Positions 8,156 through 49,848 are shown, counted from the stretch's first letter. The stretch is 64,000 bases of DNA from Patescibacteria group bacterium UBA661 (GCA_002299465.1 DBNX01000014.1:19052-83051); one strand, 5' to 3'. The notes: generated from the sequence alone by a model not told the origin. Numbers and translations are program-made.

Positions 8156-8295
8156 AAATTTCTGCTAAAGGACTTTCTTTTTGTTGAAGATGTTTATTTC
8201 TTACAAAGATTGCCCCACGTCTGTCCCCAGTAAGAATGAGTTTTATTTTGTGGATGTGCTATTGTTTGTTGTAAGTATTACTTCCAAATAATGTT

Positions 8296-9381
8296 ATGTT
8301 AAGGAGATTAAGAAGATTGAGAAGAATTATTAGAATCGTAGGTACTGTTTTTTTAGTAGCAGCAGCGGTTGTCGTCTCTTCGTTTGCTCCGATAATTGCC
8401 GTACCATTACTGTGGCTTTTTGGTTCTACTCCAACATCAGCACCGCCCCCTCCTCCGGCAGCGATTGTTTGTACTCCAGTCACTCACGAAAGCGATGGCG
8501 CTGGTGGTTGTCGTCCAGTTTTAGCGCCACCAACTAATGTGAGTGTTTTACCAATAGGCTGCGGCGGTGCGGTAAGTGTTACTTGGGACCCGGTCAGCAG
8601 AGCTGAGCGCTATGAAGTCTCGATAAACGGTGGGAGTTGGGTTAGTGTTACCCCGCCCCGACGACATATTTTTTCAGACTTAACAGTCAGCTCCAACCAA
8701 ACCGTCACTGTGCGTGCACATGCTTGGGATAGCTCTACGCCAGGGCGTTCGGCACCAACGTCGGCTAGTGGTTTAAGTTCTGGTGTTTGTAACGAACTTA
8801 ATGCCGGCAACTGCTTAATCCCAGCTGGGGCCAATAACTGCAACGCCTCGGTGGTGTGGGATATGACAGGTAACCCCAGCCCGTTTCGGATTGAAAATGA
8901 AACTAACAGCAACACAATCATAGGTAACACAGCTTCAGGAACGCAAAGTGCGACCATATCGTATGGTAATAATACTATAAATGCGTTTAGTAATAACATG
9001 TTAATTAATACCGACATTTCCACAGCTACTTGCGTACCACAGCATTTCTTTCTTGACCTTACGCAAACCTGTCAACCTAACCCAATTATCACTATCACTC
9101 CCGAGCCAATTTGGGTACGTAGTGGAGACACTGCAGAAGTAAATATCAACATCAACGCCCCGTATGATCTGGAGTGTACTCTCGCAGGTGACATAGCTAA
9201 CACCCCTTTATTTACGCACACCGGATCAATAAATCCAGTAGGTGATTATTCAATCGATACAGTACCGATTAGTGCTACTCGCATCTTGTCAGTGTCTTGT
9301 AATACTCCAGCTAACGACTTGCAGCCACCAGCCAATGCGGAGACTCGTATAAATATGGTTCCAAGAATGCAGGAGATGTAG
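8296..9381 (+). CDS. membrane-anchored surface protein with Pro-rich linker and FN3-like domain (hypothetical)
   Basis: Arg-rich N-terminus with a TM helix, a PPPPP linker, a segment VSVTWDPVSRAERYEVSINGGSWVSV resembling fibronectin type III, and an Asn/Thr/Ser-rich C-terminal region with several Cys. Confidence 0.4.
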   Translation: MLRRLRRLRRIIRIVGTVFLVAAAVVVSSFAPIIAVPLLWLFGSTPTSAPPPPPAAIVCTPVTHESDGAGGCRPVLAPPTNVSVLPIGCGGAVSVTWDPVSRAERYEVSINGGSWVSVTPPRRHIFSDLTVSSNQTVTVRAHAWDSSTPGRSAPTSASGLSSGVCNELNAGNCLIPAGANNCNASVVWDMTGNPSPFRIENETNSNTIIGNTASGTQSATISYGNNTINAFSNNMLINTDISTATCVPQHFFLDLTQTCQPNPIITITPEPIWVRSGDTAEVNININAPYDLECTLAGDIANTPLFTHTGSINPVGDYSIDTVPISATRILSVSCNTPANDLQPPANAETRINMVPRMQEM

Positions 9382-9454
9382 TTTTCCTGCATTCACGCAA
9401 TTAAAAATTTATGCTGAGTGTAAACCCGCAAGCAAGGACCAGGTGCAATTAAGA

Positions 9455-9907
9455 CTAAAAAAGACTTTCTACCACTGCCTTCACATCTTTGCCATCGGCT
9501 TGACTGCCTAGTTTCTTCATAACAGCGCCGATTAAGACACCGATTTTTGCTCGGTCAGAGACTCCTAACTCTTGTTTGACCGCTTCGGCAATGGGTCTGA
9601 TTTGGTCGGGGGTGAGGAGAGTCGGTAGGTAGGATTCTAAAATCACCAACTCCGCTTTTTCTGGGTCGGCTAGATCTTGTCTATGAGCAGCCTCAAATTG
9701 AACAATGGATTCTTTGCGTTGTTTGGCGAGTTTTTTTACCACAGCTAAAAATTCAGCATCGCTTAATTCAGCTTGCGGAGTACGCGCGGTGGCGACTAGT
9801 TCGTTAGTGCAAGCGGTCATTATACTGCGGACAGTGCGGAGCAAGACTTCATTTTTAGCTTTCATTGCCTCTTTTAAGGTGACGCGCAAATTGGTGTGCA
9901 TTGACAT
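9455..9907 (-). CDS. GatB/YqeY domain protein
   Basis: 150 aa with LKEAMKAK...AELSDAEFLAVVKKLAKQRKESI...DQIRPIAEAVKQ..GKVMK, typical of the YqeY family. Confidence 0.75.
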   Translation of the reverse strand: MSMHTNLRVTLKEAMKAKNEVLLRTVRSIMTACTNELVATARTPQAELSDAEFLAVVKKLAKQRKESIVQFEAAHRQDLADPEKAELVILESYLPTLLTPDQIRPIAEAVKQELGVSDRAKIGVLIGAVMKKLGSQADGKDVKAVVESLF

Positions 9908-10026
9908 AAGATTTAATTAAAACATTGCCAGTATAACATTGTTTTAGGTAAATCATAAAGAAGAAATCCGGAAAATACCTCAGCCAAATAATGAGTAGAC
10001 CGTGATATAATCAAACGAAAATAAAT

Positions 10027-11103
10027 ATGGAAACAGCAGTTTTACTTTTGTTGGCGTTAGTTTTGGGGGCTTTAGGTTTGGTGCTTTATGTGCTTTTTAC
10101 CAAAAAGACCGACCCAAAAGATAACCAAGCCCTGATTCTGATGCAACAACGCATTGAGGAACTTTCTCGTACTTTAGACACAAAATTGACCGAAGCCAAT
10201 CGAGCCATGCAGGAGGGGAGTCGGGTCCAATTTCGGGAAAGTCGCGAACTCATTCAAGCTATCAATCGCGAGGTTAATGAGCAATTGCGTGATGTGGTGA
10301 TAAAAACTACCGAAGTCAGCGAAAGTAGTAAACAAGTTTTTCAGATTGCTGATCAGCTAAAAGAGTTGCAGAGTATTCTAAAAAATCCAAAACAAAGAGG
10401 TATCTTGGGAGAGTATTATTTGGAGACTGTGCTACAAAATGTTTTGCCACCGGAGGGTTTCAAAATGCAATACGCTTTTACTGATGGGGAAGTGGTCGAT
10501 GCCGCGGTTTTTGTGAAAGGAAAAATCATCCCTGTTGACTCCAAGTTTTCTTTAGATAATTACAATCGTCTGGTGGAAGCGGCTGACGGTGCCGATAAAT
10601 TACAGCACGAAAAAAACTTTCTCAATGATCTTAAGCTTAGGATTACTGAAACCGCCAAATACATTCGCCCCACGGAGGGAACGATGGATTTTGCTTTTAT
10701 GTTCATTCCGCACGAGGGTATTTACTACGATTTACTTTCCAATCGAGTGGGTGCGGGTGAAGAAAATCTTATTCAGCGAGCGGCTGGTAAGTATCGTGTA
10801 ATTATCGTTTCCCCGACTTCTTTTTTGGCATATTTGCAAACAGTACTACAAGGTCTTAAGGCGCTTGAAATTGAAGAAAAAGCTCAGGACATTATCAAAA
10901 ATGTCGATAAGCTGAGTGGCCACATTGCTAAATACGAAGATTATTATCAAAAACTAGGAATGTCTTTAAGCACGACTGTCAATCATTACAATGCCGGCTA
11001 CAAAGAACTAGGGAAAGTAGACAAGGACATTTTGAAAATTACTGGTGAGAAGGTGGGTATAGAGACGCTTACTTTGGATAAGCCACAAAAGATTGATGAT
11101 TGA
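10027..11103 (+). CDS. rmuC: DNA recombination protein RmuC
   Basis: N-terminal TM helix, long coiled coil, and the conserved RmuC core (DFAFMFIPHEGIYYDLL...VIIVSPTSFLAYLQ). Confidence 0.8.
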   Translation: METAVLLLLALVLGALGLVLYVLFTKKTDPKDNQALILMQQRIEELSRTLDTKLTEANRAMQEGSRVQFRESRELIQAINREVNEQLRDVVIKTTEVSESSKQVFQIADQLKELQSILKNPKQRGILGEYYLETVLQNVLPPEGFKMQYAFTDGEVVDAAVFVKGKIIPVDSKFSLDNYNRLVEAADGADKLQHEKNFLNDLKLRITETAKYIRPTEGTMDFAFMFIPHEGIYYDLLSNRVGAGEENLIQRAAGKYRVIIVSPTSFLAYLQTVLQGLKALEIEEKAQDIIKNVDKLSGHIAKYEDYYQKLGMSLSTTVNHYNAGYKELGKVDKDILKITGEKVGIETLTLDKPQKIDD

Positions 11104-29006: not shown

Positions 29007-29999
29007 TCAGAAATCTTTTTTTCTGTATATGCGGTAAACAGCTCTCGGTGTCGGCTTTTCCTCTAAAGACCGAAACTTTCTTGCAATTGGGATGTAGTGC
29101 TTGGGAGACATACCAATGAATGTGAACGAGTACGCAATGAACTCATTAGCCTCTACCTCTAGCTGTCGACAGAGCTTTAATTTCCTGTCGATATTCTCAA
29201 ACGAGTAGCCGAGGATGTTCGGCGCCGTAGTGATCAGCTTCTGTGGGTCTTTGAACCCACGCTCACGCAACCCAGCGATTTTCCCGTCGATGTTCTCAAG
29301 CGAGTAGTTGAGGATAAGAGGCATCGAGACAATCATCTTCTGCGGGTCTTTGAACCCACGCTCTCGCAACCCAGCGATTTTCCCATCAATGTTCTCAAAC
29401 GAGTAGCCGAGGATGGCAGGCGACGTAATGATCAGCTTCTGCAGGTCTTTGAACCCACGCTCTCGCAACCCAGCGATTTTCCCGTCGATGTTCTCAAACG
29501 AGTAGCCGAGAATGGTAGGCGACGTAATGATCAGCTTCTGCGGGTCTTTGAAGCCACGCTCACGCAACCCGGCGATTTTCCCGTCGATGTTCTCAAACGA
29601 GTAGCCGAGAATGGTAGGCGACGTAATGATCAGCTTCTGCGGGTCTTTGAACCCACGCTCTCGCAACCCGGCGATTTTCCCATCAATGTTCTCAAACGAG
29701 TAGCCAAGGATGGTAGGCGACGTAATGATCAGCTTCTGCGGGTCTTCGAACCCACGCTCTCGCAACCCGGCGATTTTCCCGTCAATGTTCTCAAACGAGA
29801 GACCAAGGATGGCAGGCATCGAGACAATCATCTTCTGCAGGTCTTCGAAGCCGCGTTGTCTTAATCCTTCAATCTTTTTGCCATAATCTTCAACTGGCCA
29901 AAGGTGGTTTTTAAAGATCGAGCTGCCCTCAATACGTTCCAACCCGAAGATTTCCGCATAGAAATTTTGACGGGCGTTTCTTTCTTCTTGAGAAAGCAT
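29007..29999 (-). CDS. tandem-repeat protein with seven 33-aa mTERF-like motifs (hypothetical)
   Basis: Seven consecutive copies of G-LRERGFKDPQKLIITSPTILGYSFENIDGKIA. The pattern L..GF.d.q.i..ii..P.iLg.S.EN...K....L...GF matches the mTERF repeat consensus. Unique N- and C-terminal regions flank the repeats. Confidence 0.55.
   Translation of the reverse strand: MLSQEERNARQNFYAEIFGLERIEGSSIFKNHLWPVEDYGKKIEGLRQRGFEDLQKMIVSMPAILGLSFENIDGKIAGLRERGFEDPQKLIITSPTILGYSFENIDGKIAGLRERGFKDPQKLIITSPTILGYSFENIDGKIAGLRERGFKDPQKLIITSPTILGYSFENIDGKIAGLRERGFKDLQKLIITSPAILGYSFENIDGKIAGLRERGFKDPQKMIVSMPLILNYSLENIDGKIAGLRERGFKDPQKLITTAPNILGYSFENIDRKLKLCRQLEVEANEFIAYSFTFIGMSPKHYIPIARKFRSLEEKPTPRAVYRIYRKKDF
29178..29870. 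repeat. seven tandem 99-bp direct repeats, over 90% identical at the nucleotide level (coding)
   Basis: Unit gggtctttgaacccacgctctcgcaacccagcgattttcccgtcgatgttctcaaacgagtagccgag... recurs with only a few substitutions. Confidence 0.85.
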
Positions 30000-30163: not shown

Positions 30164-31087
30164 ATGACATTATTATTATTTTTTGGAGCGTTGGTGGCTC
30201 CCTTCCTCTACGCGATTACCAACCACGTAGATAAAATTCTCCTTCAAAATTATTTCAAGGAAGGCGGGGTTGGTACATTGATTATTTTCTCCTCCCTCCT
30301 CTCTTTTATTGCTATACCAGTGGTGCTTTTTGTTGATCCAACGGTACTACAAACTGATTGGTTTAATATAGCTATACTGACAGTTGTCGGTGCGATGAAT
30401 CTCATCTTGTTGTGGTGTTACTTGCAGGCGCTCAACGCCGATGAGCCCACGGTCGTTATTATCTTTTACCAGTTGGTGCCTGTACTCGGCCTGATTCTTG
30501 GCTATTTGGTGTTAGGAGAAATGATTACTCTGATGCAGGGGGTGGCCATGGCACTCATCATTGTTGGTGCTTGTATTATGACGTTAGCAAGTGACGAGGA
30601 TGGGAAGCTTACTATCCGACTTCGGACCCTGGGTTATATGGTGATTGCATCTTTGTGTTGGGCGGGTGAGTCTACTCTCTTTAAAAAAGTGGCCCTAGAA
30701 GAGAACGTTTGGCGTTCCTTTTTCTGGGAAAGTCTTTCGATGGTTGTTATTGGTATTATTTTGTTTTTATTTGTGCGTCGCTATCGCCAATCATTCCTAA
30801 AGGCACTAAAAGTAAACAGTAAACCAATTTTAGGTTTAAACGTTTTCAATGAGTCAGTCTACATAACTGGTAACATGGCAGCTTCTTTTATGGTGGTCCT
30901 CATTCCGGTGGCTCTTAACTTGCTGATGAATTCCTTCCAGCCCATATTTGTGTTCGTTATTGGTCTGGTATTGGCGTGGTTTATACCGAATTATGCGACT
31001 GAGACAGCGCGTAGTCGCTGGAAGCAGAAACTGTTAGCCATTGTCTTCACCGGCTTGGGGGCGTATTTCATTGGTGACTGGTGGTAG
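30164..31087 (+). CDS. DMT (EamA-like) family transporter
   Basis: 307 aa, about 10 predicted TM helices in a duplicated 5+5 arrangement. Confidence 0.55.
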   Translation: MTLLLFFGALVAPFLYAITNHVDKILLQNYFKEGGVGTLIIFSSLLSFIAIPVVLFVDPTVLQTDWFNIAILTVVGAMNLILLWCYLQALNADEPTVVIIFYQLVPVLGLILGYLVLGEMITLMQGVAMALIIVGACIMTLASDEDGKLTIRLRTLGYMVIASLCWAGESTLFKKVALEENVWRSFFWESLSMVVIGIILFLFVRRYRQSFLKALKVNSKPILGLNVFNESVYITGNMAASFMVVLIPVALNLLMNSFQPIFVFVIGLVLAWFIPNYATETARSRWKQKLLAIVFTGLGAYFIGDWW

Positions 31088-33297: not shown

Positions 33298-34074
33298 TTA
33301 GACCTGTCGGACATTCTTGCAGTCAACATTTTTTAAGACATATTTGTAAGCATCTTCAACCGAATCTACAACCACAAAGAAATCCAAGTCTTCTTTGCTG
33401 ATAGTTTTAAACTTTTTTACAAGATCTTTTTCAAACCAGTGCAACAACGGGTTCCAAAATTCCGAGCCATACAAGACAATCGGAATCCGTTCAATTTTTT
33501 TGGTTTGAATGAGGGTAATAATCTCAAAGAACTCATCCAGAGTACCGTAGCCACCAGGAAAGTAGACATAGGCCTCAGAAGCGAATGTCAGCATTACTTT
33601 ACGCGAAAAAAAATACTTAAAACTCATGGATTCTGTCGTGTAGGGATTTAGTTTTTGTTCAAACGGTAATTCGATATTAAGTCCCACTGACCGTCCACCC
33701 ACCTTAAAAGCACCCACGTTAGAGGCTTCCATAATTCCTGGACCGCCACCGGAAATCACAGCAAAACCCTTTTTGGCTAATTTAGCAGCTAGTTCCTCAG
33801 CGGCTTTGTAGTAAGGGTCGTCAGGAGTAAGTCGAGCACTTCCCCAAAAAGTAACTGATAGTCCGTAATTTCGCAACAACTCAAAACCCTGCACAAACTC
33901 AGACATAATTCTAAAAACTCGCCACGATTGCACTGCCCCGTCTTGACCGGCTGGGTCCAGTAATTCCGTTACCACTCGACACTGCTGGCTAGATTTTTTT
34001 GACTTAGCCTTATCTAACCCGAAAATTTTTTTGACCATACGCATATGTACATTGTAACATTCTATGTCTGCCAA
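33298..34074 (-). CDS. LOG family protein (TIGR00730; cytokinin riboside 5'-monophosphate phosphoribohydrolase-like)
   Basis: VTFWGSAR...ISGGGPGIMEA...PGGYGTLDE, the hallmark LOG motifs. Confidence 0.75.
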   Translation of the reverse strand: MADIECYNVHMRMVKKIFGLDKAKSKKSSQQCRVVTELLDPAGQDGAVQSWRVFRIMSEFVQGFELLRNYGLSVTFWGSARLTPDDPYYKAAEELAAKLAKKGFAVISGGGPGIMEASNVGAFKVGGRSVGLNIELPFEQKLNPYTTESMSFKYFFSRKVMLTFASEAYVYFPGGYGTLDEFFEIITLIQTKKIERIPIVLYGSEFWNPLLHWFEKDLVKKFKTISKEDLDFFVVVDSVEDAYKYVLKNVDCKNVRQV

Positions 34075-43044: not shown

Positions 43045-43986
43045 TTACAAACAAAGACCAACTCTCTCTCTGACCGTTGCCATTTTTGTTCTGGCGTAAG
43101 CCCGAGCCCGCTCCGTGCCGTCTTTGAGAATTTTTTTGACATCGTCATCTGTGATTTCAGCACGAGCGGTACGCAGCGGAGCGAGAAAATCATCCAAATC
43201 TACAATCAAGGCTTCTTTGAGATTTTTGTATTTTCCGCGATTGGCTTCGTAGAGTGGGGCTAGTTCGACTTCGCTTTTCAGTAGACGGTGGATGGCATAA
43301 ACATTTTCTGGACGCTCCCCATTGGAGTCTGTGGTGATGCTCATAACCGCTTTTTCTATTTCCGCTCGACTGCTAAAGAGCGGTATCGTGTTTTGGTAAC
43401 TTTTACTCATCTTTTGACCATTAGTTCCTGGCACCACGCCGACTCCCTTAAGAATGGCTTCTTGCGGAGCGGTGAAAGTTTCGCCGTACGCTAGATTGAA
43501 TTTGTTGGCGGCTTCGCGGGCGTATTCAATGTGTTGTCTTTGGTCTTCACCGACTGGCACAACTTCCGCGTCATAAAGAAGAATATCAGCCGCCATCAAC
43601 ATCGGATAATTAAACAAGCCGGCGGTGGCTTCTATTCCTTTGGCTACCTTGTCTTTGTAGGCATGGGCCTGCATCAGGAAAGGCACCGTGACCAAGCACT
43701 CAAAAATCCAAGCTAATTCTGTGTGTTCTGGGACGTCTGATTGTTTAAAGATAATGGCTTCTTGGGGATGCACACCAACAGCTAAGTAGTCTTTTACTAC
43801 GTCCAGAATGTTCTGTCGCAGTGTTGTAGCGTCGCGCACTGTCGTTAAGGCATGCAAATCAGCCACCATCAAGTAGCTATCATAATCCTGATAAACATCT
43901 CTAAAAGGCTTTAGAGCCCCAAAATAATTGCCGATATGAAGTGTTCCTGATGATTGGATTCCGGTCAAAAGGCGTTTCTTAATCAT
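43045..43986 (-). CDS. trpS: tryptophan--tRNA ligase
   Basis: TGIQSSGTLHIGNY HIGH motif and KMSKS (KMSKS present); 313 aa. Confidence 0.9.
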   Translation of the reverse strand: MIKKRLLTGIQSSGTLHIGNYFGALKPFRDVYQDYDSYLMVADLHALTTVRDATTLRQNILDVVKDYLAVGVHPQEAIIFKQSDVPEHTELAWIFECLVTVPFLMQAHAYKDKVAKGIEATAGLFNYPMLMAADILLYDAEVVPVGEDQRQHIEYAREAANKFNLAYGETFTAPQEAILKGVGVVPGTNGQKMSKSYQNTIPLFSSRAEIEKAVMSITTDSNGERPENVYAIHRLLKSEVELAPLYEANRGKYKNLKEALIVDLDDFLAPLRTARAEITDDDVKKILKDGTERARAYARTKMATVRERVGLCL

Positions 43987-44027: not shown

Positions 44028-45707
44028 TTACATAACTACCGGTAGTTCTAAGGTAAAGCGAGAACCTTGCCCTTCCCCGTCCGAGTGAGCGGTGATATTT
44101 CCACCCATCGCTTGAGCTAATTTGAGAGCTACATAGAGACCGAGCCCAGTCCCCCTCACATTAACAGTGTTGGCTGAGTCTCCGCGTTTAAATTTTTGAA
44201 AAATGTTATCAAGAGTATCTTTGTTCATACCAATGCCAGTGTCTAAAATATCAACAAAAACTTTTTTCGTCTTCCCGTTGTCTCTAACTAGGACAGTAAT
44301 TGAGCCCTTAGGCGTGTATTTGATGGCGTTGCCAATTAGGTTAAACAAAATCTGTTGTATCTTACCCTGATCTGCATTAATGACACCCTGGGAAGATTCT
44401 AGGCGGCTCCGGAAAAGTAAGATGACTCCATTGTGCAAGGCTTCTGGACGTAAGTCATCGCAAGTATGCTCCGTCAATTGATGTAGATTAAAGTCGGTAA
44501 AATTATATTTCATATTACCAGATTCAATTCGAGAAACGTTCAAGAAGTCTTCAATACTTTCCGCCATAAATCTGGCTGATCTTTCGATTCTTTCCAGGGG
44601 TTCGCTTAGTTTTGCTGGCACCACACCATAGTCACCCTCACGAATCATTGAAGCGTACCCAGCAATCGAAGTGAGCGGGCTGCGGAGTTGGTGGGAGGCA
44701 ATCGAAACAAACTCCGATTTTTGTTTATCAATAGCCATTAGGCGTTTGTTTACTTCGGTTAGATTGTTGGCTAAATTAGCGAGTTCATCGCGCTGTAGAA
44801 TTTCTCGTCGGATACTTCGGGTCAGAAAAATTCCAATTACACCAGTCATCACTAAGGTAGTAGACAAGATAATGATTGCAGTCTTGTTTTCGGTAAAAAC
44901 AAATTGTGCGCCAATCAGGATAACCAGAGCGATAATCAATGCCTGTGAGGCAAAGAGATTGACGTTAAAAGTTTTGAACTTAACGATTAGTATCGTGATG
45001 AAAACGGCAAAGACCAGCATACCAAAGAGACCGTAGATTTCGAGGCGAGAGTCATAGAGGAGTCCGATGCTGGTTAGGTAAGTTATGACAAAAGTCAATG
45101 AGAGGAACGACAGTAAAAAGAATCCCATACCTATGCCCATCAGCATAATTTGCTTCTTGAAATCGGGGGTTGCGCGGTAGTATTCACGTATCATCAACAC
45201 TGGTATCCAGATTAGGGCTATTGCGCCAATGGCGGTGTAGTATATTTTGTAAAATAATCCCTCGTACTCAAATGGGTTACACTGTGTAATGTTAAATCCA
45301 CTCAAGTTTAAATTAGTGTGGGCAAACAATAAGACAGGGAGTAGCAAGATCGTAAAAAAAACTTTGAGTTTATTACTGATATCTTTTTTATACAAAAATA
45401 CATAAATAAAATAAATGCTAAGTATGGGAATTAGGGCTTGTAGAATCGCGAATAATGGCCAAATAAATAAAATCACACCGGCATCGACATTAGTCCAAGC
45501 AATCAGACTGATAAATGTCCACAAAGAGAAACCGAGCGTGATGAACAAGAGTAAACGATTAAGTAGTAATCGTGGACCATTCCAGAAAACGAATAATCCC
45601 AACAAAAGAGCAATGATGGCAACTGGAATGTGTGAATAGTAAATGATTACCGGTAAGTCGGGGCTGAAGAAAAAATAACTGGGTTCCGGAAATAGATAAC
45701 AAATCAT
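44028..45707 (-). CDS. sensor histidine kinase with polytopic N-terminal membrane sensor domain
   Basis: About 9-10 TM helices, then HisKA (SHQLRSPL) and HATPase_c (GTGLGLY). No response regulator gene in the window. Confidence 0.8.
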   Translation of the reverse strand: MICYLFPEPSYFFFSPDLPVIIYYSHIPVAIIALLLGLFVFWNGPRLLLNRLLLFITLGFSLWTFISLIAWTNVDAGVILFIWPLFAILQALIPILSIYFIYVFLYKKDISNKLKVFFTILLLPVLLFAHTNLNLSGFNITQCNPFEYEGLFYKIYYTAIGAIALIWIPVLMIREYYRATPDFKKQIMLMGIGMGFFLLSFLSLTFVITYLTSIGLLYDSRLEIYGLFGMLVFAVFITILIVKFKTFNVNLFASQALIIALVILIGAQFVFTENKTAIIILSTTLVMTGVIGIFLTRSIRREILQRDELANLANNLTEVNKRLMAIDKQKSEFVSIASHQLRSPLTSIAGYASMIREGDYGVVPAKLSEPLERIERSARFMAESIEDFLNVSRIESGNMKYNFTDFNLHQLTEHTCDDLRPEALHNGVILLFRSRLESSQGVINADQGKIQQILFNLIGNAIKYTPKGSITVLVRDNGKTKKVFVDILDTGIGMNKDTLDNIFQKFKRGDSANTVNVRGTGLGLYVALKLAQAMGGNITAHSDGEGQGSRFTLELPVVM

Positions 45708-46144
45708 AGTTCGGAATTAGTGGTAGTTTTAGGCGATTGGGGTGGGAGTGAGGCGGTGTCAGATGACCGGTGGTCTACCGGATCACAAATACTACCAATT
45801 TTTTGCGGGTCGCAGAAAGAGATTGAACAGCTTCTTTCTTGATTGGTACAAGTATTGGCAAAAGGACAAGCGGTGATATTTTCTCCGCACAGTTTTATTA
45901 AATCAGCCGCATAACGCTCCACTTTAGTGTAATAAAAAACATCAGCGGTTGGACAATCAGAAATATCCGCAATAATAAGATCTTGGCAACCCAAATAACA
46001 ACTAGCGACAGTTGGGTCACAATCCATTTTGTAAGATACCAAATAATCATCGAGTACCACAAAACGGTAGTAAGAAGCCGCCATAGTGAAAATTAAAAGC
46101 GGAATGACCGTATACGCGAGAATGTTTCGCAAAAAATGCTGCAT
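45704..46144 (-). CDS. membrane-anchored Cys-rich extracytoplasmic protein (hypothetical), co-transcribed with the histidine kinase
   Basis: N-terminal TM helix, then 11 Cys in about 110 aa. Its stop overlaps the kinase start by 4 nt. Confidence 0.45.
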   Translation of the reverse strand: MQHFLRNILAYTVIPLLIFTMAASYYRFVVLDDYLVSYKMDCDPTVASCYLGCQDLIIADISDCPTADVFYYTKVERYAADLIKLCGENITACPFANTCTNQERSCSISFCDPQKIGSICDPVDHRSSDTASLPPQSPKTTTNSEL

Positions 46145-46319
46145 AATAAAATATGACTCCTGTGTCTATCTTACAGCATAAAAGATAATATTTTGGGTTA
46201 AATTAAGGCGGGGTTGTATATATCGTCAAAAACCTTAGTGTGCGTAAATCTAAAATAACGATTGATTTTTACTAGAGAGCGATAGTTTATTTTTGACTAT
46301 CGGAAGCGATGAGGGAACA

Positions 46320-47630
46320 TCAACGAATCCATCCCCACTGACGTAATTTTTCTTGCTCCTCATTTATAAATTTAAGCCCAATATCGGTCCGGTACATCAT
46401 ATTTGGTATAGATATTTTATTTACTCGGGCATAGGCACTAGTGCGGGCAGCTTGAACACTACTACCTTTACCGGTCACATAAAGTGCGTAACCATGGTGC
46501 CCGGCGTGGTAGTAATGTTCTTTACCGTCAGGTAATTTAGCTTTGGCGATTTCCTCAAAATGAATATGAGAAAAATCTTCAGGGCTAAAATCCTCACTAA
46601 AGAAAAGGGAGACACCGGTTGAGGTTGTGACGCGAGCCCCACTGGCTAAATCAGGGGCAAACGGAAAAGGCGGTAGAGCAATGGAGACAACTATTCCGTA
46701 ATCAGTAGAGTATTTTAAGTCGTAAGGTTTGCCATCAGCGATAGCTTTAAGCACCTCACCCCAAGGAGAAATTTGTAACTCACACTGGAGTTCGGCGGCG
46801 GGAGTACCGAAACGAGTAGTAGCTTCTAGCGGCCAGACACCTTCAGCATTAACAATGCAGCCAATATCAATGTCGCCCTTGTAGTCAATTTTTATTAAAT
46901 GGTCAGTCAGTTTGGCGAGAGTAGCTTGAAACAGTGGTTGTTGTTCGTCATCTTCATACCACATCAAAGTCCCCATTTCAGCCGTGAGCGGACCGATGTC
47001 GCCATTCATAAAACGTTTGTGTTCAAGATTTATTTCAATTGGACCTACCCAATGTTCGCCGTTAAAATAACGAGCTACCCCAATTTCTACTCCCACCACT
47101 CTTTTTTGTAAATGGACACTAGTGATGTTTTCTTTTTTATAATATTGGAGCATATCAAGAATGTCAGTTCCGTTACTTCTTTGTCCAACATAGTTAAGGG
47201 CACTGATGTGGGTATTTTGTTTTAACACCCAATAATCAGGATTATTTTTGACAAAATCAGCCGCCGCATCGGGGGTTGCAAAATCATACGAGGGTAAGGT
47301 TTTAACACCACTGTCAGCGAGTAGCTGTTGAAAGTGCTGGCGATCCAATTCCATTTTGTTACTTGCGGCATTACCACCAAAAACACTGTACCCAGCTTGT
47401 CGTAGGCGGTCTGGCAAATCAGCAAAGTTAACATCATCAAAAACAATCAGACCGTCTTTACCGACCCAGTCTAATTCTTTTTCCCAGTTAGAGACCTGTT
47501 CAACAAAGCCTGCCAGACAATTTTTGCGATCAGGATGTTCTACATACAGCTTCACGTCGTGTCCCTCTTTAAGTAGTTGGTGAATGACAGCTGAACCAAT
47601 AAGTTCTCCAGAAATAAATAATACTCGCAC
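46320..47630 (-). CDS. ATP-grasp enzyme related to phosphoribosylamine--glycine ligase (PurD-like)
   Basis: EHKRFMNGDIGPLTAEMGTLMW matches the PurD DHKRl.dGD.GPNTGGMG region and the overall length (436 aa) fits. The canonical N-terminal GGREHA motif is absent (SGELIGSAV instead). Confidence 0.5.
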   Translation of the reverse strand: MRVLFISGELIGSAVIHQLLKEGHDVKLYVEHPDRKNCLAGFVEQVSNWEKELDWVGKDGLIVFDDVNFADLPDRLRQAGYSVFGGNAASNKMELDRQHFQQLLADSGVKTLPSYDFATPDAAADFVKNNPDYWVLKQNTHISALNYVGQRSNGTDILDMLQYYKKENITSVHLQKRVVGVEIGVARYFNGEHWVGPIEINLEHKRFMNGDIGPLTAEMGTLMWYEDDEQQPLFQATLAKLTDHLIKIDYKGDIDIGCIVNAEGVWPLEATTRFGTPAAELQCELQISPWGEVLKAIADGKPYDLKYSTDYGIVVSIALPPFPFAPDLASGARVTTSTGVSLFFSEDFSPEDFSHIHFEEIAKAKLPDGKEHYYHAGHHGYALYVTGKGSSVQAARTSAYARVNKISIPNMMYRTDIGLKFINEEQEKLRQWGWIR

Positions 47631-47639
47631 GGTAAATAA

Positions 47640-48050
47640 TTAGTTATAAATATTTTCTACTGGATAGCTTAAGCCACGATTGATAACTTGCTGTTCGTAA
47701 TCGGTTAACTTAAAAGCAGCAACAAACTCTTGAGTCAATTTTTCAGTATCGATAGTATCTTGGCAGGTGTACACATCAATCGTAATAAAACCACGCTTAG
47801 GGAAAGTATGAAAGCTCATATGACTTTCCGCGATTAATACAAAACCGCTAACTCCACCGGGGTCTTTTTGATTCTTGGGACCAACCTCGACCACAACTGG
47901 CTGAGAGATGGTGTGCATACCCATCGCCACCGGTATTTTCTCGAGAAAGTTACGCAAAGTCGGAATATCTTTTAACAAATCAGGATCAGCACCATAGCCA
48001 TCGAGCATATAATGTAGACCAAAGCGGGCGGTGTTTTGTTGGGTTGACAT
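47640..48050 (-). CDS. speH: S-adenosylmethionine decarboxylase proenzyme (class 1b, pyruvoyl-dependent)
   Basis: GVSGFVLIAESHMSFHTFPKRGFITIDVYTCQD aligns with the B. subtilis SpeD self-cleavage region (ESH...). Confidence 0.85.
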   Translation of the reverse strand: MSTQQNTARFGLHYMLDGYGADPDLLKDIPTLRNFLEKIPVAMGMHTISQPVVVEVGPKNQKDPGGVSGFVLIAESHMSFHTFPKRGFITIDVYTCQDTIDTEKLTQEFVAAFKLTDYEQQVINRGLSYPVENIYN

Positions 48051-48195
48051 AATATTAGGAAATATTTTTCATTATAGCATATAAAAAATATATTGTCAAA
48101 GTAAAAAATACAACATTTGTTTGACGTCTATAATGTTAACTGTTTCTAGCGTAAATAGTAACAAGCGATGTGGGGAAAGAAAATACGGCTGTAAG

Positions 48196-48681
48196 TCAGT
48201 TAGCTGCCATAATGACAAGCGGTATTAGCAGATACCAGAAACTAAAAGTCTGGTTGTTAAGCCAACTAAGCAAAGCTGGCTGGGTACCGAGAAGATCAGA
48301 AAAAGGTAAATAGTTCATAATTAAGACTAAAGCAAAAATAGTGAAAGCGATAGTCAGTAGGATTTTTTTACCGAACGATTCAAAGCGATTTTCTAGGTAT
48401 TCTGAAGGCATCACGCGGCGGAAAAAGAGAAAACCAAGCACGGTCAAAAATAAAAAACCGCCAATCGCCAAATAAGTGTTTTCGTTAACCAAGGATTGAT
48501 AGGGTTGTAGCTTAAAAAGCAAAAGTGCTAGATAGCCAGCACAAATTAAGTTTATTAAGCTCTGTCGACCACCGAAAAAAGCCCAAACCAAACCCACCGC
48601 TGCCGTGGTTAATAATATGCTGAACTCAAAAATGAAATTCTGGATTAAGCCGATATCCATTATCGTTTCATTATATCGCAC
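48196..48681 (-). CDS. hypothetical membrane protein
   Basis: 161 aa with 4-5 predicted TM helices; no motif recognised. Confidence 0.4.
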   Translation of the reverse strand: MRYNETIMDIGLIQNFIFEFSILLTTAAVGLVWAFFGGRQSLINLICAGYLALLLFKLQPYQSLVNENTYLAIGGFLFLTVLGFLFFRRVMPSEYLENRFESFGKKILLTIAFTIFALVLIMNYLPFSDLLGTQPALLSWLNNQTFSFWYLLIPLVIMAAN

Positions 48682-48774
48682 GCTTAAGAAGGATTGACTT
48701 AGAGAAATTCACACCCAGTGTTATATAGGAAACCAAAAACGCTACGCCTGAGGCGTAGCGTTTTTGGTTTCCTA

Positions 48775-49848
48775 CTAAATCCCTTCTTGACGTAATTCCT
48801 CAATAAGCTTCTCTGCTTTTTTAGATAACTTTTTCGGAAGAGCGATGTTGATTTTTATGAGTAAATCACCACGGGTGCCGTTGCCTAGGGGTACGCCCTT
48901 CCCTTTCACGCGTAGCATCTCCCCATGCGCTACACCGGTTGGGATTTTTATTTCAATAACACCATCCAGAGTTTCTACGTTATAAGCGCCACCGAGCAAA
49001 GCATCGGAAAGTTTGGTGGGAAGATTGACGTGCAAAGTAGAGCCGTCGCGCTTTATGGTGGGGTGAGATTCCACCTGAACTTTTATGTAGAGATCGCCGG
49101 GTTGTCCGTGTGGCATCGCCTCGCCTCTACCGGTCATTCTAATCACTTCCCCATTTTCAATCCCCGGCGGTATCTTGAAGGTGATTTCTTCTTGATTACG
49201 CCTAATGCCGGTACCGGCGCAGTGCCCGCAACGTTCTTTTGGTACTTCACCCCGACCCTGACAAACACTACATTCTCGCACAGTAGTAAAGCTACCCAAG
49301 ATACTTTGTCTCGTTTCGTGCAGTTTACCATTACCGCCACAAGTGACGCAGCTGCTAAGACCAGCGCCGGCTTTAGCACCGGATCCTTGACACTGTTCAC
49401 AAAGCATATTTTTGGTAACCAGAACCTTACGTTCGGTTCCAAAAATTGCTTCTTTGAAACCCAGATTGATTTCAATCGAGATATCCCGACCGCGCGCTGT
49501 ACGACTAGAGCGCGCTCCAGCAAAACCAAAACTCTCAAAAATATCATTCAAGTCGAATTCGAAGTTTCCGTTTTGAAAGCCCCCTCCGCCGGCAAAATCT
49601 TGCCAGTTAAAACCAGCCGCTCCAGCCCCCGTTCCACCACCGCTAAAAGCCCGACCGTAGCTATCGTATTCAGCTTTTTTCTTATCGTCACCCAAAACAG
49701 CGTACGCCTCGGTTATTTCTTTATATTTTGCCTCATCCCCCGTCTTTTTATCGGGGTGATACTGAGCCGCCAGCTTACGGAACGCCTTTTTAACCTCTTC
49801 TTTAGAAGCGCCCCGGGAGAGACCAAGAATTGAATAGTAATCCTTCAT
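48775..49848 (-). CDS. dnaJ: chaperone DnaJ
   Basis: J-domain (YAVLGD; HPD), a G/F region, and four CxxCxG zinc-finger repeats. Confidence 0.9.

What the first reader, a model, noticed from the sequence alone, without database searches (positions are those of the whole stretch)
46320..48050. Operon of class 1b S-adenosylmethionine decarboxylase with an atypical PurD-like ATP-grasp ligase
speH (the ESH self-cleavage motif is conserved) is followed after 9 nt by an ATP-grasp protein. That protein shares the PurD core (EHKRF..GD.GP.T..MG) but lacks the invariant GGREHA N-terminal motif. Streamlined CPR-like genomes usually lack de novo purine synthesis. The tight linkage to AdoMetDC hints instead at a polyamine-related ligase (compare glutathionylspermidine or other ATP-grasp amine ligases), or at a PurD paralog recruited for a new carboxylate-amine ligation. 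No spermidine synthase gene is seen nearby.
Basis: partly seen in the sequence, partly recalled or inferred. Interest (0 to 1): 0.5.

Follow-up and report, generated by a model that had tools for sequence, protein, structure and literature searches.

The report
Agmatine-linked PurD-fold ligase operon
A two-gene operon in a small-genome (CPR) bacterium pairs an enzyme annotated as S-adenosylmethionine decarboxylase, which more probably makes agmatine from arginine, with a purine-enzyme look-alike that is not a purine enzyme and probably attaches an unknown acid to that agmatine.

Summary
On the minus strand, a 136-aa SpeD/SpeH-fold pyruvoyl proenzyme (47640..48050, ESH motif intact) lies 9 nt upstream of a 436-aa ATP-grasp protein (46320..47630). 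A perfect sigma-70 consensus promoter precedes the pair.

The ligase has the full PurD fold (AF2 pLDDT 95; TM 0.70-0.78 to PurD structures) but is not PurD. It scores 90.6 bits against a cutoff of 288, has no GGREHA loop, and has lost the RFGDPE Asp and Glu. The 64-kb window contains no pur genes.

The decarboxylase is probably not AdoMetDC. None of 103 clade members keeps the ribose-binding Glu. Relatives 63-69% identical sit beside 1,9-bis(guanidino)-5-aza-nonane synthase and agmatinase, which points to arginine decarboxylase activity.

Ligase homologs elsewhere sit next to agmatinase and GAMT-like guanidino methyltransferases. In one Rhodospirillales chromosome a homolog follows an unrelated pyruvoyl arginine decarboxylase.

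Best reading: agmatine is made and then acylated by the ligase. The acid substrate is unknown. The pairing is a minority arrangement (22 of 77 ligase loci). No paper I found assigns the family a function; "extra" PurD-like proteins with the same diagnostic features were flagged as non-PurD in haloarchaea in 2011.

The parts
48071..48099 (-). Promoter-like site: TTGACA, 17 nt, TATAAT, with TG before the -10 hexamer. It ends 20 nt upstream of the decarboxylase ATG.
   Evidence: 12 of 12 consensus matches, the only perfect site in 45500..48800. The number of promoter-like sites in the region is no higher than in shuffles, so this is a consensus match and not proof of function.
47640..48050 (-). 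SpeD/SpeH-fold pyruvoyl-dependent decarboxylase proenzyme (136 aa). Probably an L-arginine decarboxylase (SpeDA type) rather than AdoMetDC.
   Evidence: Fold and processing residues:
- Pfam AdoMet_dc 98 bits; TIGR03330 82.3 against a cutoff of 75.65.
- E75-S76-H77, H81 and C96 are invariant in the clade.

Differences from AdoMetDC:
- Lys85 sits where T. maritima Glu72 is. None of 103 clade members has Glu there, and the next residue is Arg or Lys in 102 of 103.
- A 7-aa insertion, VGPKNQK.

Context:
- Relatives 61-69% identical are followed by a DHS/SpeY homolog. In L094 that homolog scores as 1,9-bis(guanidino)-5-aza-nonane synthase and is followed by agmatinase.
47631..47639 (-). 9-nt spacer between the decarboxylase stop codon and the ligase GTG start.
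   Evidence: In relatives the same junction is -4 to +49 nt in 14 of 23 pairs.
46320..47630 (-). PurD-fold ATP-grasp ligase paralog (436 aa). It is not GAR synthetase. It is predicted to form an amide between an unknown carboxylate and agmatine or an agmatine-derived amine.
   Evidence: Similarity to PurD:
- TIGR00877 90.6 bits against a cutoff of 288; GARS_A 29.4 bits; GARS_C 33.7 bits, below its cutoff; no GARS_N.
- AF2 pLDDT 95.3. The top 15 PDB fold matches are all PurD, with TM 0.69-0.78 and 16-20% identity.

Residues kept: R97, K137, E182, K205, E269, R273.

PurD-specific residues lost:
- Asp295 corresponds to T276, and Glu297 to A278.
- The N of the ExN motif is T271.
- The GGREHA loop is absent.
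45704..46144 (-). Small membrane-anchored Cys-rich protein (146 aa). It is a conserved downstream neighbour. Its role is unknown and it may not belong to the pathway.
   Evidence: It has no Pfam or NCBIfam family. Homologs lie within 4 genes of the ligase in 40 of about 82 loci.
44028..45707 (-). Multi-pass membrane sensor histidine kinase (559 aa). It is the most conserved neighbour, and its start overlaps the Cys-rich gene by 4 nt.
   Evidence: HisKA and HATPase_c domains. Homologs lie downstream of the ligase in 62 of about 82 loci. It also occurs next to decarboxylase loci that lack the ligase, so it marks the genomic island and not the ligase specifically.
48196..48681 (-). 161-aa membrane protein upstream of the operon. 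It recurs upstream of the decarboxylase in relatives.
   Evidence: cluster TM161. It has no Pfam family; its only NCBIfam matches are weak and far below cutoff.
30164..31087 (+). EamA/DMT-family transporter (307 aa). It is the window's homolog of the transporter that usually lies beside the ligase; here it is 15 kb away.
   Evidence: - Pfam EamA 49 bits.
- It matches the HMM of ligase-adjacent EamA proteins at E = 3.5e-86.
- EamA lies within 4 genes of the ligase in 54 of about 82 loci.
- It is 53% identical to the EamA that was co-transferred with the ligase into a Rhodospirillales chromosome.

Best explanation
The two genes form one transcription unit that makes a basic amine and then acylates it.

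Step 1, inferred from sequence and context. The SpeD-fold proenzyme cleaves itself at Ser76 to form a pyruvoyl cofactor. It decarboxylates L-arginine to agmatine. That would make it a neofunctionalised AdoMetDC homolog of the SpeDA kind, not an AdoMet decarboxylase.

Step 2, with the fold shown and the chemistry inferred. The PurD-fold ATP-grasp enzyme uses ATP to turn a carboxylate into an acyl-phosphate, as PurD does with glycine. It then transfers the acyl group to the primary amine of agmatine or an agmatine derivative, where PurD would use phosphoribosylamine. The product would be an N-acyl- or N-aminoacyl-agmatine. The carboxylate substrate is unknown and is probably not bound as PurD binds glycine.

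Step 3, inferred from other genomes only. The product can be tailored further and moved across the membrane. Tailoring enzymes found beside the ligase elsewhere are GAMT-like guanidino N-methyltransferases, agmatinase-type ureohydrolases and other methyltransferases. The likely carrier is the EamA/DMT transporter that is usually encoded next to the ligase.
For: Shown:
- Two co-directional genes 9 nt apart, behind a perfect consensus promoter.
- The ligase has the four-domain PurD fold.
- It fails the PurD equivalog model at 90.6 bits against 288.
- It lacks GGREHA, the RFGDPE Asp and Glu, and the B-loop GLAAGK. It keeps the ATP-grasp Lys, Glu and Arg residues.
- No pur or speE gene is in the window.
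- Cultured Minisyncoccus archaeiphilus has the same pair with a 4-nt overlap. It is reported to lack nucleotide biosynthesis (PMC12281837).

For agmatine as the decarboxylase product:
- None of 103 clade members has Glu at the position of T. maritima Glu72, which I take to equal human Glu247, the ribose ligand (my knowledge). The next residue is Arg or Lys in 102 of 103.
- The clade lacks the Q/T/F/Y signature of the ornithine-specific SpeDC group.
- The window's closest metagenomic relatives (61-69% identity) are followed by a DHS/SpeY homolog. In L094 it scores 541 bits against a cutoff of 500 for 1,9-bis(guanidino)-5-aza-nonane synthase. The gene after it scores 203 against 174 for agmatinase.
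- SpeY enzymes use agmatine and cluster with SpeDA or pyruvoyl ADC (PMC13625781).
- Ligase-linked and SpeY-linked decarboxylases are interleaved in the tree.

For the ligase handling an agmatine-type substrate:
- In a 6-Mb Rhodospirillales chromosome the gene upstream of a 56%-identical ligase is a PvlArgDC-family protein, a pyruvoyl decarboxylase of an unrelated fold.
- An agmatinase equivalog lies directly after the ligase in L079 (184 bits against 174). Arginase-family genes lie near the ligase in 4 loci.
- GAMT homologs (E = 3e-43 to rat guanidinoacetate methyltransferase) lie beside the ligase in 8 genome loci. Among decarboxylase-centred loci they occur in 2 of 5 with the ligase and 0 of 75 without it.
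- In the slot after the decarboxylase, the ligase, SpeY and a standalone LPG_synthase_C-like protein exclude one another.

For a link to the transporter:
- In the Rhodospirillales chromosome the ligase (GC 0.41) and EamA (GC 0.38) lie in flanks of GC 0.54-0.55. That EamA is 53% identical to the window's.
Against: - No substrate was tested, and the carboxylate partner is entirely open.
- The pairing is a minority arrangement. Only 22 of 77 ligase loci have the decarboxylase within 6 kb. Only 3 of 55 decarboxylase loci with enough downstream sequence have the ligase as the next gene.
- Most loci are from one phylum with conserved gene order. Shared ancestry therefore inflates the counts.
- The family also has a large branch outside the CPR, including Acetobacteraceae, Bacteroidota and haloarchaea. 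No decarboxylase was seen nearby in the 7 loci examined there. The recurrent partner, in 2 of the 7, is an unrelated class I methyltransferase.
- In the Rhodospirillales locus the PvlArgDC gene has native GC (0.58). The low-GC ligase-EamA pair could have landed beside it by accident.
- That PvlArgDC scores below the NCBIfam equivalog cutoff (65 against 107).
- TIGR03330 formally calls the window protein AdoMetDC.
- The authors who defined SpeDA say it is hard to separate from AdoMetDC by sequence.
- I could not place the window protein in a tree with their validated enzymes.
Confidence: 0.5

Rival explanations
1. The neighbours are not metabolically coupled. The decarboxylase sits in a variable 'amine island' next to a conserved sensor kinase, and the ligase is another tenant of that island. 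The ligase works on a substrate unrelated to the decarboxylase product. It could, for example, make the same unknown methylated amide as the branch of the family outside the CPR.
For: - The slot after the decarboxylase holds many different genes: SpeY, EamA, LPG_synthase_C-like, TM192 and others.
- About 70% of ligase loci lack the decarboxylase within 6 kb.
- PRMT-like and SET genes occur in the island with or without the ligase.
- The 7 loci examined outside the CPR show no decarboxylase nearby.
Against: - Gaps of -4 to +49 nt in 14 of 23 pairs, across ligases that have diverged to 45-60% identity.
- A single promoter lies in front of the pair in the window.
- A pyruvoyl arginine decarboxylase of a different fold lies upstream of the transferred ligase in Rhodospirillales.
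- GAMT-like genes are seen only beside the ligase, and agmatinase-type genes lie near it in 4 loci.
Confidence: 0.25
2. The first gene is a true AdoMet decarboxylase. The ligase acts on decarboxylated AdoMet or on an aminopropylated polyamine.
For: - TIGR03330 scores 82.3 bits, above its 75.65 cutoff, and the ESH, His, Cys and Pro84 residues are conserved.
- One relative (L056) has a canonical AdoMetDC-spermidine synthase fusion two genes upstream of its ligase.
Against: - The ribose-binding Glu is absent in all 103 clade members, whereas the L056 fusion keeps the canonical HTWPD and has no insertion.
- No aminopropyltransferase is in the window.
- Close relatives are coupled to agmatine-using SpeY and agmatinase.
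- Characterised SpeD homologs in genomes without speE were arginine or ornithine decarboxylases (PMC10407285).
Confidence: 0.1
3. The ligase modifies a protein or peptide rather than a small molecule. It would add an amine or amino acid to a side chain or terminus, as RimK and the tubulin ligases do. The neighbouring methyl- and acetyltransferases would act on the same protein.
For: SET-domain, PrmA/PRMT-like and GNAT genes recur near the ligase in CPR genomes and on plasmids of Sphingomonas and Chondrinema. A conserved small Cys-rich protein lies next to the ligase.
Against: - The closest fold relatives by a wide margin are the small-molecule enzyme PurD, then PurK and biotin carboxylase. Peptide ligases are not among them.
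- SET and PRMT-like genes also occur in island variants without the ligase.
- The Cys-rich protein has an N-terminal membrane anchor and looks extracytoplasmic, whereas the ligase is cytoplasmic.
Confidence: 0.1
4. The ATP-grasp protein is a divergent but genuine GAR synthetase (PurD).
For: It has the PurD fold and a PurD-like EHKRF...GP.T..MG segment. Many databases annotate relatives as phosphoribosylamine--glycine ligase.
Against: - 90.6 bits against the 288 cutoff.
- The GGREHA loop, the Asp and Glu of RFGDPE, and the B-loop are all lost.
- No pur genes are in the window.
- The family is present in an organism that lacks nucleotide biosynthesis.
- Haloarchaeal 'extra' PurD-like proteins with the same defects were judged not to be GAR synthetases, and those genomes have a separate candidate PurD (PMC3261824).
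Confidence: 0.02

Closest known systems
PurD / glycinamide ribonucleotide synthetase (EC 6.3.4.13, TIGR00877)
   Same: - Full four-domain fold: TM 0.69-0.78 to 15 PurD structures, well ahead of biotin carboxylase and PurK.
- Conserved ATP-grasp residues, plus the (D/E)HKR, RFG and RxDIG motifs.
- It presumably uses the same acyl-phosphate mechanism.
   Different: - 16-22% identity.
- The first 50-70 residues have no detectable sequence similarity to PurD, and there is no GGREHA loop.
- The proposed general base Asp and the glycine-binding Glu of RFGDPE are lost. The ExN Asn is Thr. The B-loop GLAAGK is replaced.
- There is no purine-pathway context.
'Extra' PurD-like proteins of haloarchaea (Hlac_1553, rrnAC0307; Brown et al. 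2011, PMC3261824)
   Same: The diagnostic defects match: no GARS_N, a divergent N-terminal loop, and loss of the conserved Asp in R[LF]GDPE. Those authors also concluded that the proteins are not GAR synthetases. A haloarchaeal plasmid homolog from Halarchaeum is 36-37% identical to the window protein over 96% of its length.
   Different: I could not compare those two named proteins directly. No function or partner genes were proposed for them. The haloarchaeal locus examined has no decarboxylase beside it.
SpeDA: AdoMetDC-derived pyruvoyl L-arginine decarboxylases (Li et al. 2023, PMC10407285)
   Same: - Class 1b SpeD fold with the Ser, His and Cys processing residues.
- Found in genomic regions without speE.
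- Relatives cluster with SpeY and agmatinase, as the validated SpeDA genes do.
- It lacks the SpeDC (ornithine) signature.
   Different: - Activity was not tested.
- The protein was not placed in a tree with the validated proteins.
- The marker those authors give for SpeDA is loss of a conserved Pro, and both candidate prolines are kept here (P64, P84).
- The partner here is an ATP-grasp ligase, which those papers do not describe (0 occurrences of 'ATP-grasp' or 'PurD').
Decarboxylase plus ATP-grasp amine ligase pairs, such as MfnA/MfnD in methanofuran biosynthesis (tyrosine to tyramine, then gamma-glutamyl-tyramine). Recalled from my own knowledge, not tested here.
   Same: The logic is the same: an amino acid is decarboxylated to an amine, which an ATP-grasp enzyme then acylates.
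   Different: The enzyme families differ (a PLP decarboxylase and a non-PurD ATP-grasp clade), as do the substrates and organisms. No homology is implied.
E-64 biosynthesis (PMC12568646)
   Same: It is a natural product with an agmatine amide, and its pathway includes an ATP-grasp ligase.
   Different: It is fungal. There the ATP-grasp enzyme joins the acid to an amino acid, and a different amide-bond synthetase adds the agmatine.

Membership tests
PurD / GAR synthetase (TIGR00877) | Score at or above the curated equivalog cutoff (288 bits) | tested here: not met
   90.6 bits.
PurD / GAR synthetase (TIGR00877) | GARS_N domain with the GGREHA loop (Arg13 and Glu14 in the human enzyme) | tested here: not met
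   No GARS_N hit. Profile alignments to PurD start only at residue 49-72. The loop between strand 1 and helix 1 reads SGELIGS.
PurD / GAR synthetase (TIGR00877) | R[LF]GDPE motif with the Asp (proposed general base) and the Glu (glycine amino-group ligand) | tested here: not met
   The window has R273-F-G-T276-P-A278, and both positions vary across the family. The residue roles are taken from PMC2978367 and PMC8880213.
PurD / GAR synthetase (TIGR00877) | Four-domain PurD fold | tested here: met
   pLDDT 95.3. The top 15 PDB matches are all PurD, with E = 1e-26 to 1e-30 and TM 0.69-0.78.
PurD / GAR synthetase (TIGR00877) | Occurs together with the rest of the de novo purine pathway | tested here: not met
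   No pur gene was found among about 45 window ORFs. A homolog is present in M. archaeiphilus, which is reported to lack nucleotide biosynthesis. The whole genome of the window organism was not available.
PurD / GAR synthetase (TIGR00877) | Makes GAR from PRA, glycine and ATP | not testable with these tools
   Requires an enzyme assay or complementation of a purD mutant.
ATP-grasp carboxylate-amine ligase superfamily | ATP-grasp fold with conserved nucleotide- and Mg-binding residues | tested here: met
   R97, K137, Q175/E182, K205, E269 and R273 are invariant or nearly so in 111 sequences. They align to PurD Lys, Glu and Arg residues. One departure: Thr271 replaces the Asn of ExN.
Class 1b AdoMetDC (SpeD/SpeH; PF02675, TIGR03330) | Family HMM hit and the self-processing and catalytic Ser, His and Cys residues | tested here: met
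   PF02675 98.1 bits; TIGR03330 82.3 against a cutoff of 75.65. S76, H81 and C96 are invariant.
Class 1b AdoMetDC (SpeD/SpeH; PF02675, TIGR03330) | Glu that binds the AdoMet ribose (T. maritima Glu72, equal to human Glu247; residue role recalled from my own knowledge) | tested here: not met
   The window has Lys85. None of 103 clade members has Glu there. Canonical enzymes, and the L056 SpeD-SpeE fusion, have HTWP[E/D].
Class 1b AdoMetDC (SpeD/SpeH; PF02675, TIGR03330) | A partner aminopropyltransferase (SpeE) in the genome | tested here: inconclusive
   None is in the 64-kb window. The rest of the genome was not seen.
SpeDA (AdoMetDC-derived arginine decarboxylase) | Genomic coupling to agmatine-consuming enzymes (SpeY, SpeB/agmatinase) | tested here: met
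   This holds for close relatives, not for the window itself. In L094 (63% identical) the decarboxylase is followed by NF002699 (541 bits against 500) and TIGR01230 (203 against 174). DHS homologs lie in 14 of 80 decarboxylase-centred loci.
SpeDA (AdoMetDC-derived arginine decarboxylase) | Not of the SpeDC (ornithine) type: lacks the diagnostic Gln, Thr, Phe and Tyr | tested here: met
   The window has IAESHMSFHTFPK, whereas SpeDC domains have QLIETS..GHFAN..Y.
SpeDA (AdoMetDC-derived arginine decarboxylase) | Groups with experimentally validated SpeDA proteins in a phylogeny | not tested
   The validated sequences (PIS27863, PIN80235, PIN84875, WP_181385235, WP_119321511) could not be fetched with these tools.
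SpeDA (AdoMetDC-derived arginine decarboxylase) | Decarboxylates L-arginine and not AdoMet, ornithine or lysine | not testable with these tools
   Requires an enzyme assay.

The most novel reading that the evidence does not exclude
CPR/Patescibacteria, and some other bacteria by gene transfer, make a so far undescribed family of agmatine-derived amides. The route would be: a pyruvoyl arginine decarboxylase, then a PurD-fold ligase that has swapped phosphoribosylamine for agmatine, then optional guanidino methylation or de-amidination, then transport by a dedicated DMT carrier. The product could be a secreted or surface molecule used in the episymbiotic lifestyle. It would sit in a variable 'agmatine island' beside a conserved sensor kinase. 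That island alternatively encodes homospermidine synthesis or an LPG_synthase_C-like transferase.
Probability: 0.35. Interest if true: 0.7.

Novelty: new variant of a known kind. Interest (0 to 1): 0.55.

Why it matters
- Both genes are routinely mis-annotated, as phosphoribosylamine--glycine ligase and as S-adenosylmethionine decarboxylase. This plants false 'purine' and 'spermidine' steps in metabolic reconstructions of CPR bacteria, whose biosynthetic poverty is a central claim about their lifestyle.
- The ligase family is large. There were more than 1100 hits (90%-identity clusters) to the window protein and more than 2800 to a Roseomonas homolog. No paper I found assigns it a function.
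- If the model holds, it adds a new fate for agmatine and a new substrate class for the PurD fold.
- It is directly testable. The same overlapping gene pair exists in the cultured Minisyncoccus archaeiphilus, and homologs exist in cultured Roseomonas, Belnapia, Chondrinema and Halarchaeum.

Tried and rejected
- True PurD was rejected on the HMM cutoff, the lost catalytic and substrate residues, and the absence of pur genes.
- The SpeDC (ornithine decarboxylase) type was rejected because its diagnostic residues are absent.
- I first took the 313-aa gene at 43045..43986 for the EamA partner. It is a class I tRNA synthetase (tRNA-synt_1b). The real EamA homolog is at 30164..31087.
- I guessed that the family's F-D-D corresponds to PurD's G-P-E phosphate-binding turn. 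hhalign instead pairs GKD with GPE at low confidence, so I make no claim about that region.
- PRMT-like, SET and GNAT neighbours looked at first like ligase-specific tailoring enzymes. PRMT-like and SET also occur in island variants without the ligase, so only the GAMT-like link is kept as specific.
- The class I methyltransferase that overlaps the ligase in Proteobacteria is not homologous to the CPR methyltransferases.
- Literature searches for agmatine with ATP-grasp or PurD found only the fungal E-64 pathway. A search for amidoligase surveys gave nothing on this family.
- The viral fold library gave only generic ATP-grasp matches. The phage sequence collection gave one unannotated hit at 27% identity. 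The afdb50 fold library was not available.
- The structural paper on T. maritima AdoMetDC ligand complexes is not in the library. The role of Glu72 therefore rests on my memory of the human Glu247 equivalence.
- The 14-kb contig returned for the exact protein added no sequence beyond the window.
Full report
**1. What is in the sequence**

Both genes lie on the minus strand.
- The first gene (47640..48050, 136 aa) matches Pfam AdoMet_dc at 98 bits. It matches TIGR03330 at 82.3 bits, just above the 75.65 cutoff.
- It keeps E75-S76-H77, H81 and C96, the self-processing and catalytic residues of class 1b AdoMetDC-fold enzymes.
- Nine nucleotides after its stop codon, a GTG opens a 436-aa ORF (46320..47630). 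More than 100 homologs align to this ORF from residue 1.
- The only perfect TTGACA-17-TATAAT site in the region, with a TG extension, ends 20 nt upstream of the first gene.
- A 175-nt gap separates the second gene from the next gene downstream.

The pair looks like a two-gene transcription unit.

**2. The ATP-grasp protein has the PurD fold but is not PurD**

Sequence scores:
- It reaches only 90.6 bits on the purD equivalog model, whose cutoff is 288.
- It hits GARS_A weakly and GARS_C below cutoff. It has no GARS_N hit.

Fold:
- An AlphaFold2 model built from 111 family members is very confident (pLDDT 95.3).
- Its 15 best PDB matches are all GAR synthetases, with TM 0.69-0.78 and 16-20% identity.
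- The next matches, biotin carboxylase and PurK, are about ten orders of magnitude weaker in E-value.

Sequence alignments to PurD:
- HMM and profile-profile alignments begin only at residue 49-72.
- The loop that carries GGREHA in PurD reads SGELIGS here.

Residues that PurD structural papers assign to function, compared with the family:

| PurD residue and role (human GARS numbering unless stated) | This family |
|---|---|
| ATP-grasp Lys, Glu and Arg | kept: R97, K137, E182, K205, E269, R273 |
| Asp217 (glycine binding) | Glu203 |
| Asp295 (proposed general base) | a variable position, T276 in the window |
| Glu297 (ligand of the glycine amino group) | Ala or Ser |
| Asn of the E. coli EFN segment | invariant Thr271 |
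| B-loop GLAAGK | replaced |

Context:
- The window has no pur genes among about 45 ORFs scanned.
- The same gene is present in cultured Minisyncoccus archaeiphilus. That organism is reported to lack nucleotide biosynthesis.
- Brown et al. (2011) listed the same defects for 'extra' PurD-like proteins of haloarchaea and concluded they are not GAR synthetases.
- A haloarchaeal plasmid homolog is 36-37% identical to the window protein.

**3. The decarboxylase is probably not an AdoMet decarboxylase**

I compared 103 members of the clade from genome and metagenome loci.
- All have a 7-residue insertion before the DPGG(V/W)SG segment.
- None has Glu at the position of T. maritima Glu72. The window has Lys85, and the clade varies there.
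- The following residue is Arg or Lys in 102 of the 103.
- The spacing H-x-x-P-E matches human H243...E247. Glu247 is the ligand of the AdoMet ribose hydroxyls. That residue role is from my own knowledge; the relevant structural paper was not in the library.
- A canonical AdoMetDC fused to spermidine synthase, found in locus L056, keeps HTWPD and has no insertion. This shows what the genuine enzyme looks like in this phylum.
- The window protein also lacks the Gln/Thr/Phe/Tyr signature of the ornithine-specific SpeDC group.

Li et al. showed that SpeD homologs in genomes without speE are arginine or ornithine decarboxylases. They also showed that the arginine type (SpeDA) clusters with speY and speB.

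**4. Context says the clade makes agmatine**

A metagenome scan with the clade's motifs returned 80 loci.
- The window's closest relatives (61-69% identity) are followed by a deoxyhypusine-synthase homolog.
- In L094 that homolog scores 541 bits, above the 500-bit cutoff for 1,9-bis(guanidino)-5-aza-nonane synthase. That enzyme condenses two agmatines.
- The next gene in L094 scores 203 bits against 174 for agmatinase.
- In a neighbour-joining tree, decarboxylases linked to the ligase, to SpeY, to an LPG_synthase_C-like protein and to a 192-aa membrane protein are interleaved.

These appear to be one enzyme type feeding alternative downstream genes. In the loci held, the ligase never occurs together with SpeY or with the LPG_synthase_C-like protein.

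**5. Evidence that the ligase uses that amine**

Starting from the ligase, 80 species-representative genome loci were recovered. Nearly all are Patescibacteria.

Association with the decarboxylase:
- Of the 77 loci with at least 500 nt upstream of the ligase, 22 have the clade decarboxylase within about 6 kb.
- In 14 of the 23 pairs measured, counting the window's own, the two genes are co-directional with a gap of -4 to +49 nt. This includes a 4-nt overlap in M. archaeiphilus.

Four further observations point to a guanidino or agmatine substrate.
- (a) In a 6-Mb Rhodospirillales chromosome, a 56%-identical ligase is preceded by a PvlArgDC-family gene. That is a pyruvoyl decarboxylase of an unrelated fold. 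SpeDA and pyruvoyl ADC are reported to substitute for each other in the same way upstream of speY.
- (b) An agmatinase equivalog follows the ligase in L079, and arginase-family genes lie near it in 4 loci.
- (c) Homologs of guanidinoacetate N-methyltransferase (E = 3e-43 to the rat enzyme) lie beside the ligase in 8 genome loci. Among decarboxylase-centred loci they occur in 2 of 5 with the ligase and 0 of 75 without it.
- (d) The LPG_synthase_C-like protein in the equivalent slot belongs to a family of aminoacyl-tRNA-dependent transferases. From my own knowledge, VlmA is a small-molecule example. This suggests that acylation of the amine is the shared theme.

**6. Transporter and island**

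- An EamA/DMT transporter lies within four genes of the ligase in 54 of about 82 loci.
- In the Rhodospirillales chromosome the ligase (GC 0.41) and EamA (GC 0.38) stand out from flanks of GC 0.54-0.55. That EamA probably starts about 10 nt after the ligase stop, and it is 53% identical to the window's EamA at 30164..31087.
- The ligase and transporter therefore moved together. The PvlArgDC gene has native GC (0.58), so its adjacency could be recruitment or coincidence.
- The sensor kinase (62 loci) and the small Cys-rich membrane protein (40 loci) are conserved neighbours. They also occur where the ligase is absent. I treat them as markers of a variable island, not as proven parts of the pathway.

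**7. Limits**

- The pairing is a minority arrangement in both directions. About 29% of ligase loci have the decarboxylase nearby. The ligase is the next gene in 3 of 55 decarboxylase loci with enough downstream sequence.
- Most loci share ancestry, so the counts are not independent events.
- A large branch of the family lies outside the CPR, with more than 2800 hits to a Roseomonas homolog. No decarboxylase was seen nearby in the 7 loci examined there. The recurrent partner, in 2 of the 7, is an overlapping class I methyltransferase unrelated to the CPR ones.
- The acid substrate is unknown.
- I could not compare the decarboxylase with the experimentally validated SpeDA sequences, nor see whole genomes.

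**8. Verdict**

- Its core inference, a PurD paralog recruited for another carboxylate-amine ligation in a polyamine-related context, is supported.
- The 'AdoMetDC' label is probably wrong.
- Most likely mechanism, at about 0.5 confidence: arginine is decarboxylated to agmatine by a SpeDA-type pyruvoyl enzyme, and the PurD-fold ligase then acylates the agmatine in an ATP-dependent reaction. Tailoring and transport are encoded nearby in other genomes.
- This is a new variant of a known kind of enzyme. It is of moderate interest and can be tested directly in cultured organisms.

Noticed in passing
window 29007..29999 (-): A 330-aa protein has three stretches matching Pfam mTERF (98.8 bits). That family is mostly known from eukaryotic organelles, so it is unexpected in a CPR-type bacterial window.
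   Followed up: no
L090-L169 (metagenome loci), e.g. L096 1551..2582 and L156 6304..7221: Standalone LPG_synthase_C-like (MprF C-terminal/DUF2156) proteins occur in 10 of 80 loci of this decarboxylase clade. In several they follow the decarboxylase directly. They never occur together with the PurD-like ligase in the loci held. The only PDB relative is an uncharacterised protein, 2HQY.
   Followed up: partly
L001 = L007 (Rhodospirillales MAG chromosome OZ244972.1), 7349..10307: A low-GC ligase-EamA pair (GC 0.41 and 0.38) is embedded in a chromosome of GC 0.54, directly behind a PvlArgDC-family gene of GC 0.58. A LuxR-type autoinducer-binding regulator lies upstream on the opposite strand. This looks like recent transfer from a CPR-like donor.
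   Followed up: partly
L056 4074..5141: A 355-aa fusion of a canonical AdoMetDC (HTWPD motif, no insertion) with a spermidine synthase domain lies two genes upstream of the ligase in a Parcubacteria MAG.
   Followed up: partly
window 45704..46144 (-) and 44028..45707 (-): A family of small membrane-anchored Cys-rich proteins with no Pfam or NCBIfam model is conserved directly upstream of, and overlapping, a multi-pass sensor histidine kinase in dozens of CPR loci. It may be a co-sensor.
   Followed up: partly
L171 7260..8093 and L172 7278..8141: In the proteobacterial branch of the ligase family, the ligase stop overlaps the start of a class I SAM methyltransferase. The two methyltransferases are 58% identical to each other and unrelated to the CPR methyltransferases. 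The pairing recurs in two distinct genomes.
   Followed up: partly
L086 7001..8301 (Sphingomonas daechungensis plasmid): The ligase homolog is annotated as two ORFs (7001..7417 and 7420..8301), which suggests a frameshift or pseudogene. It overlaps a convergent SET-domain gene.
   Followed up: no
phage record MW202796.1, 42140..43441: An unannotated full-length homolog of the ligase (27% identity, E = 2e-22) lies at the end of a 43.8-kb Caudoviricetes contig from a spring metagenome.
   Followed up: no
window 33298..34074 (-): This gene hits Pfam 'Possible lysine decarboxylase' (PF03641) and SLOG cluster4. From my own knowledge this is the LOG/SLOG family, and the Pfam name is misleading. It should not be counted as a polyamine decarboxylase.
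   Followed up: no
L121-L167, e.g. L135 3498..4076: A 192-aa multi-pass membrane protein without any family assignment follows the decarboxylase directly in about 7 loci and occurs in 10 of the 80. It may be a carrier for the amine.
   Followed up: no
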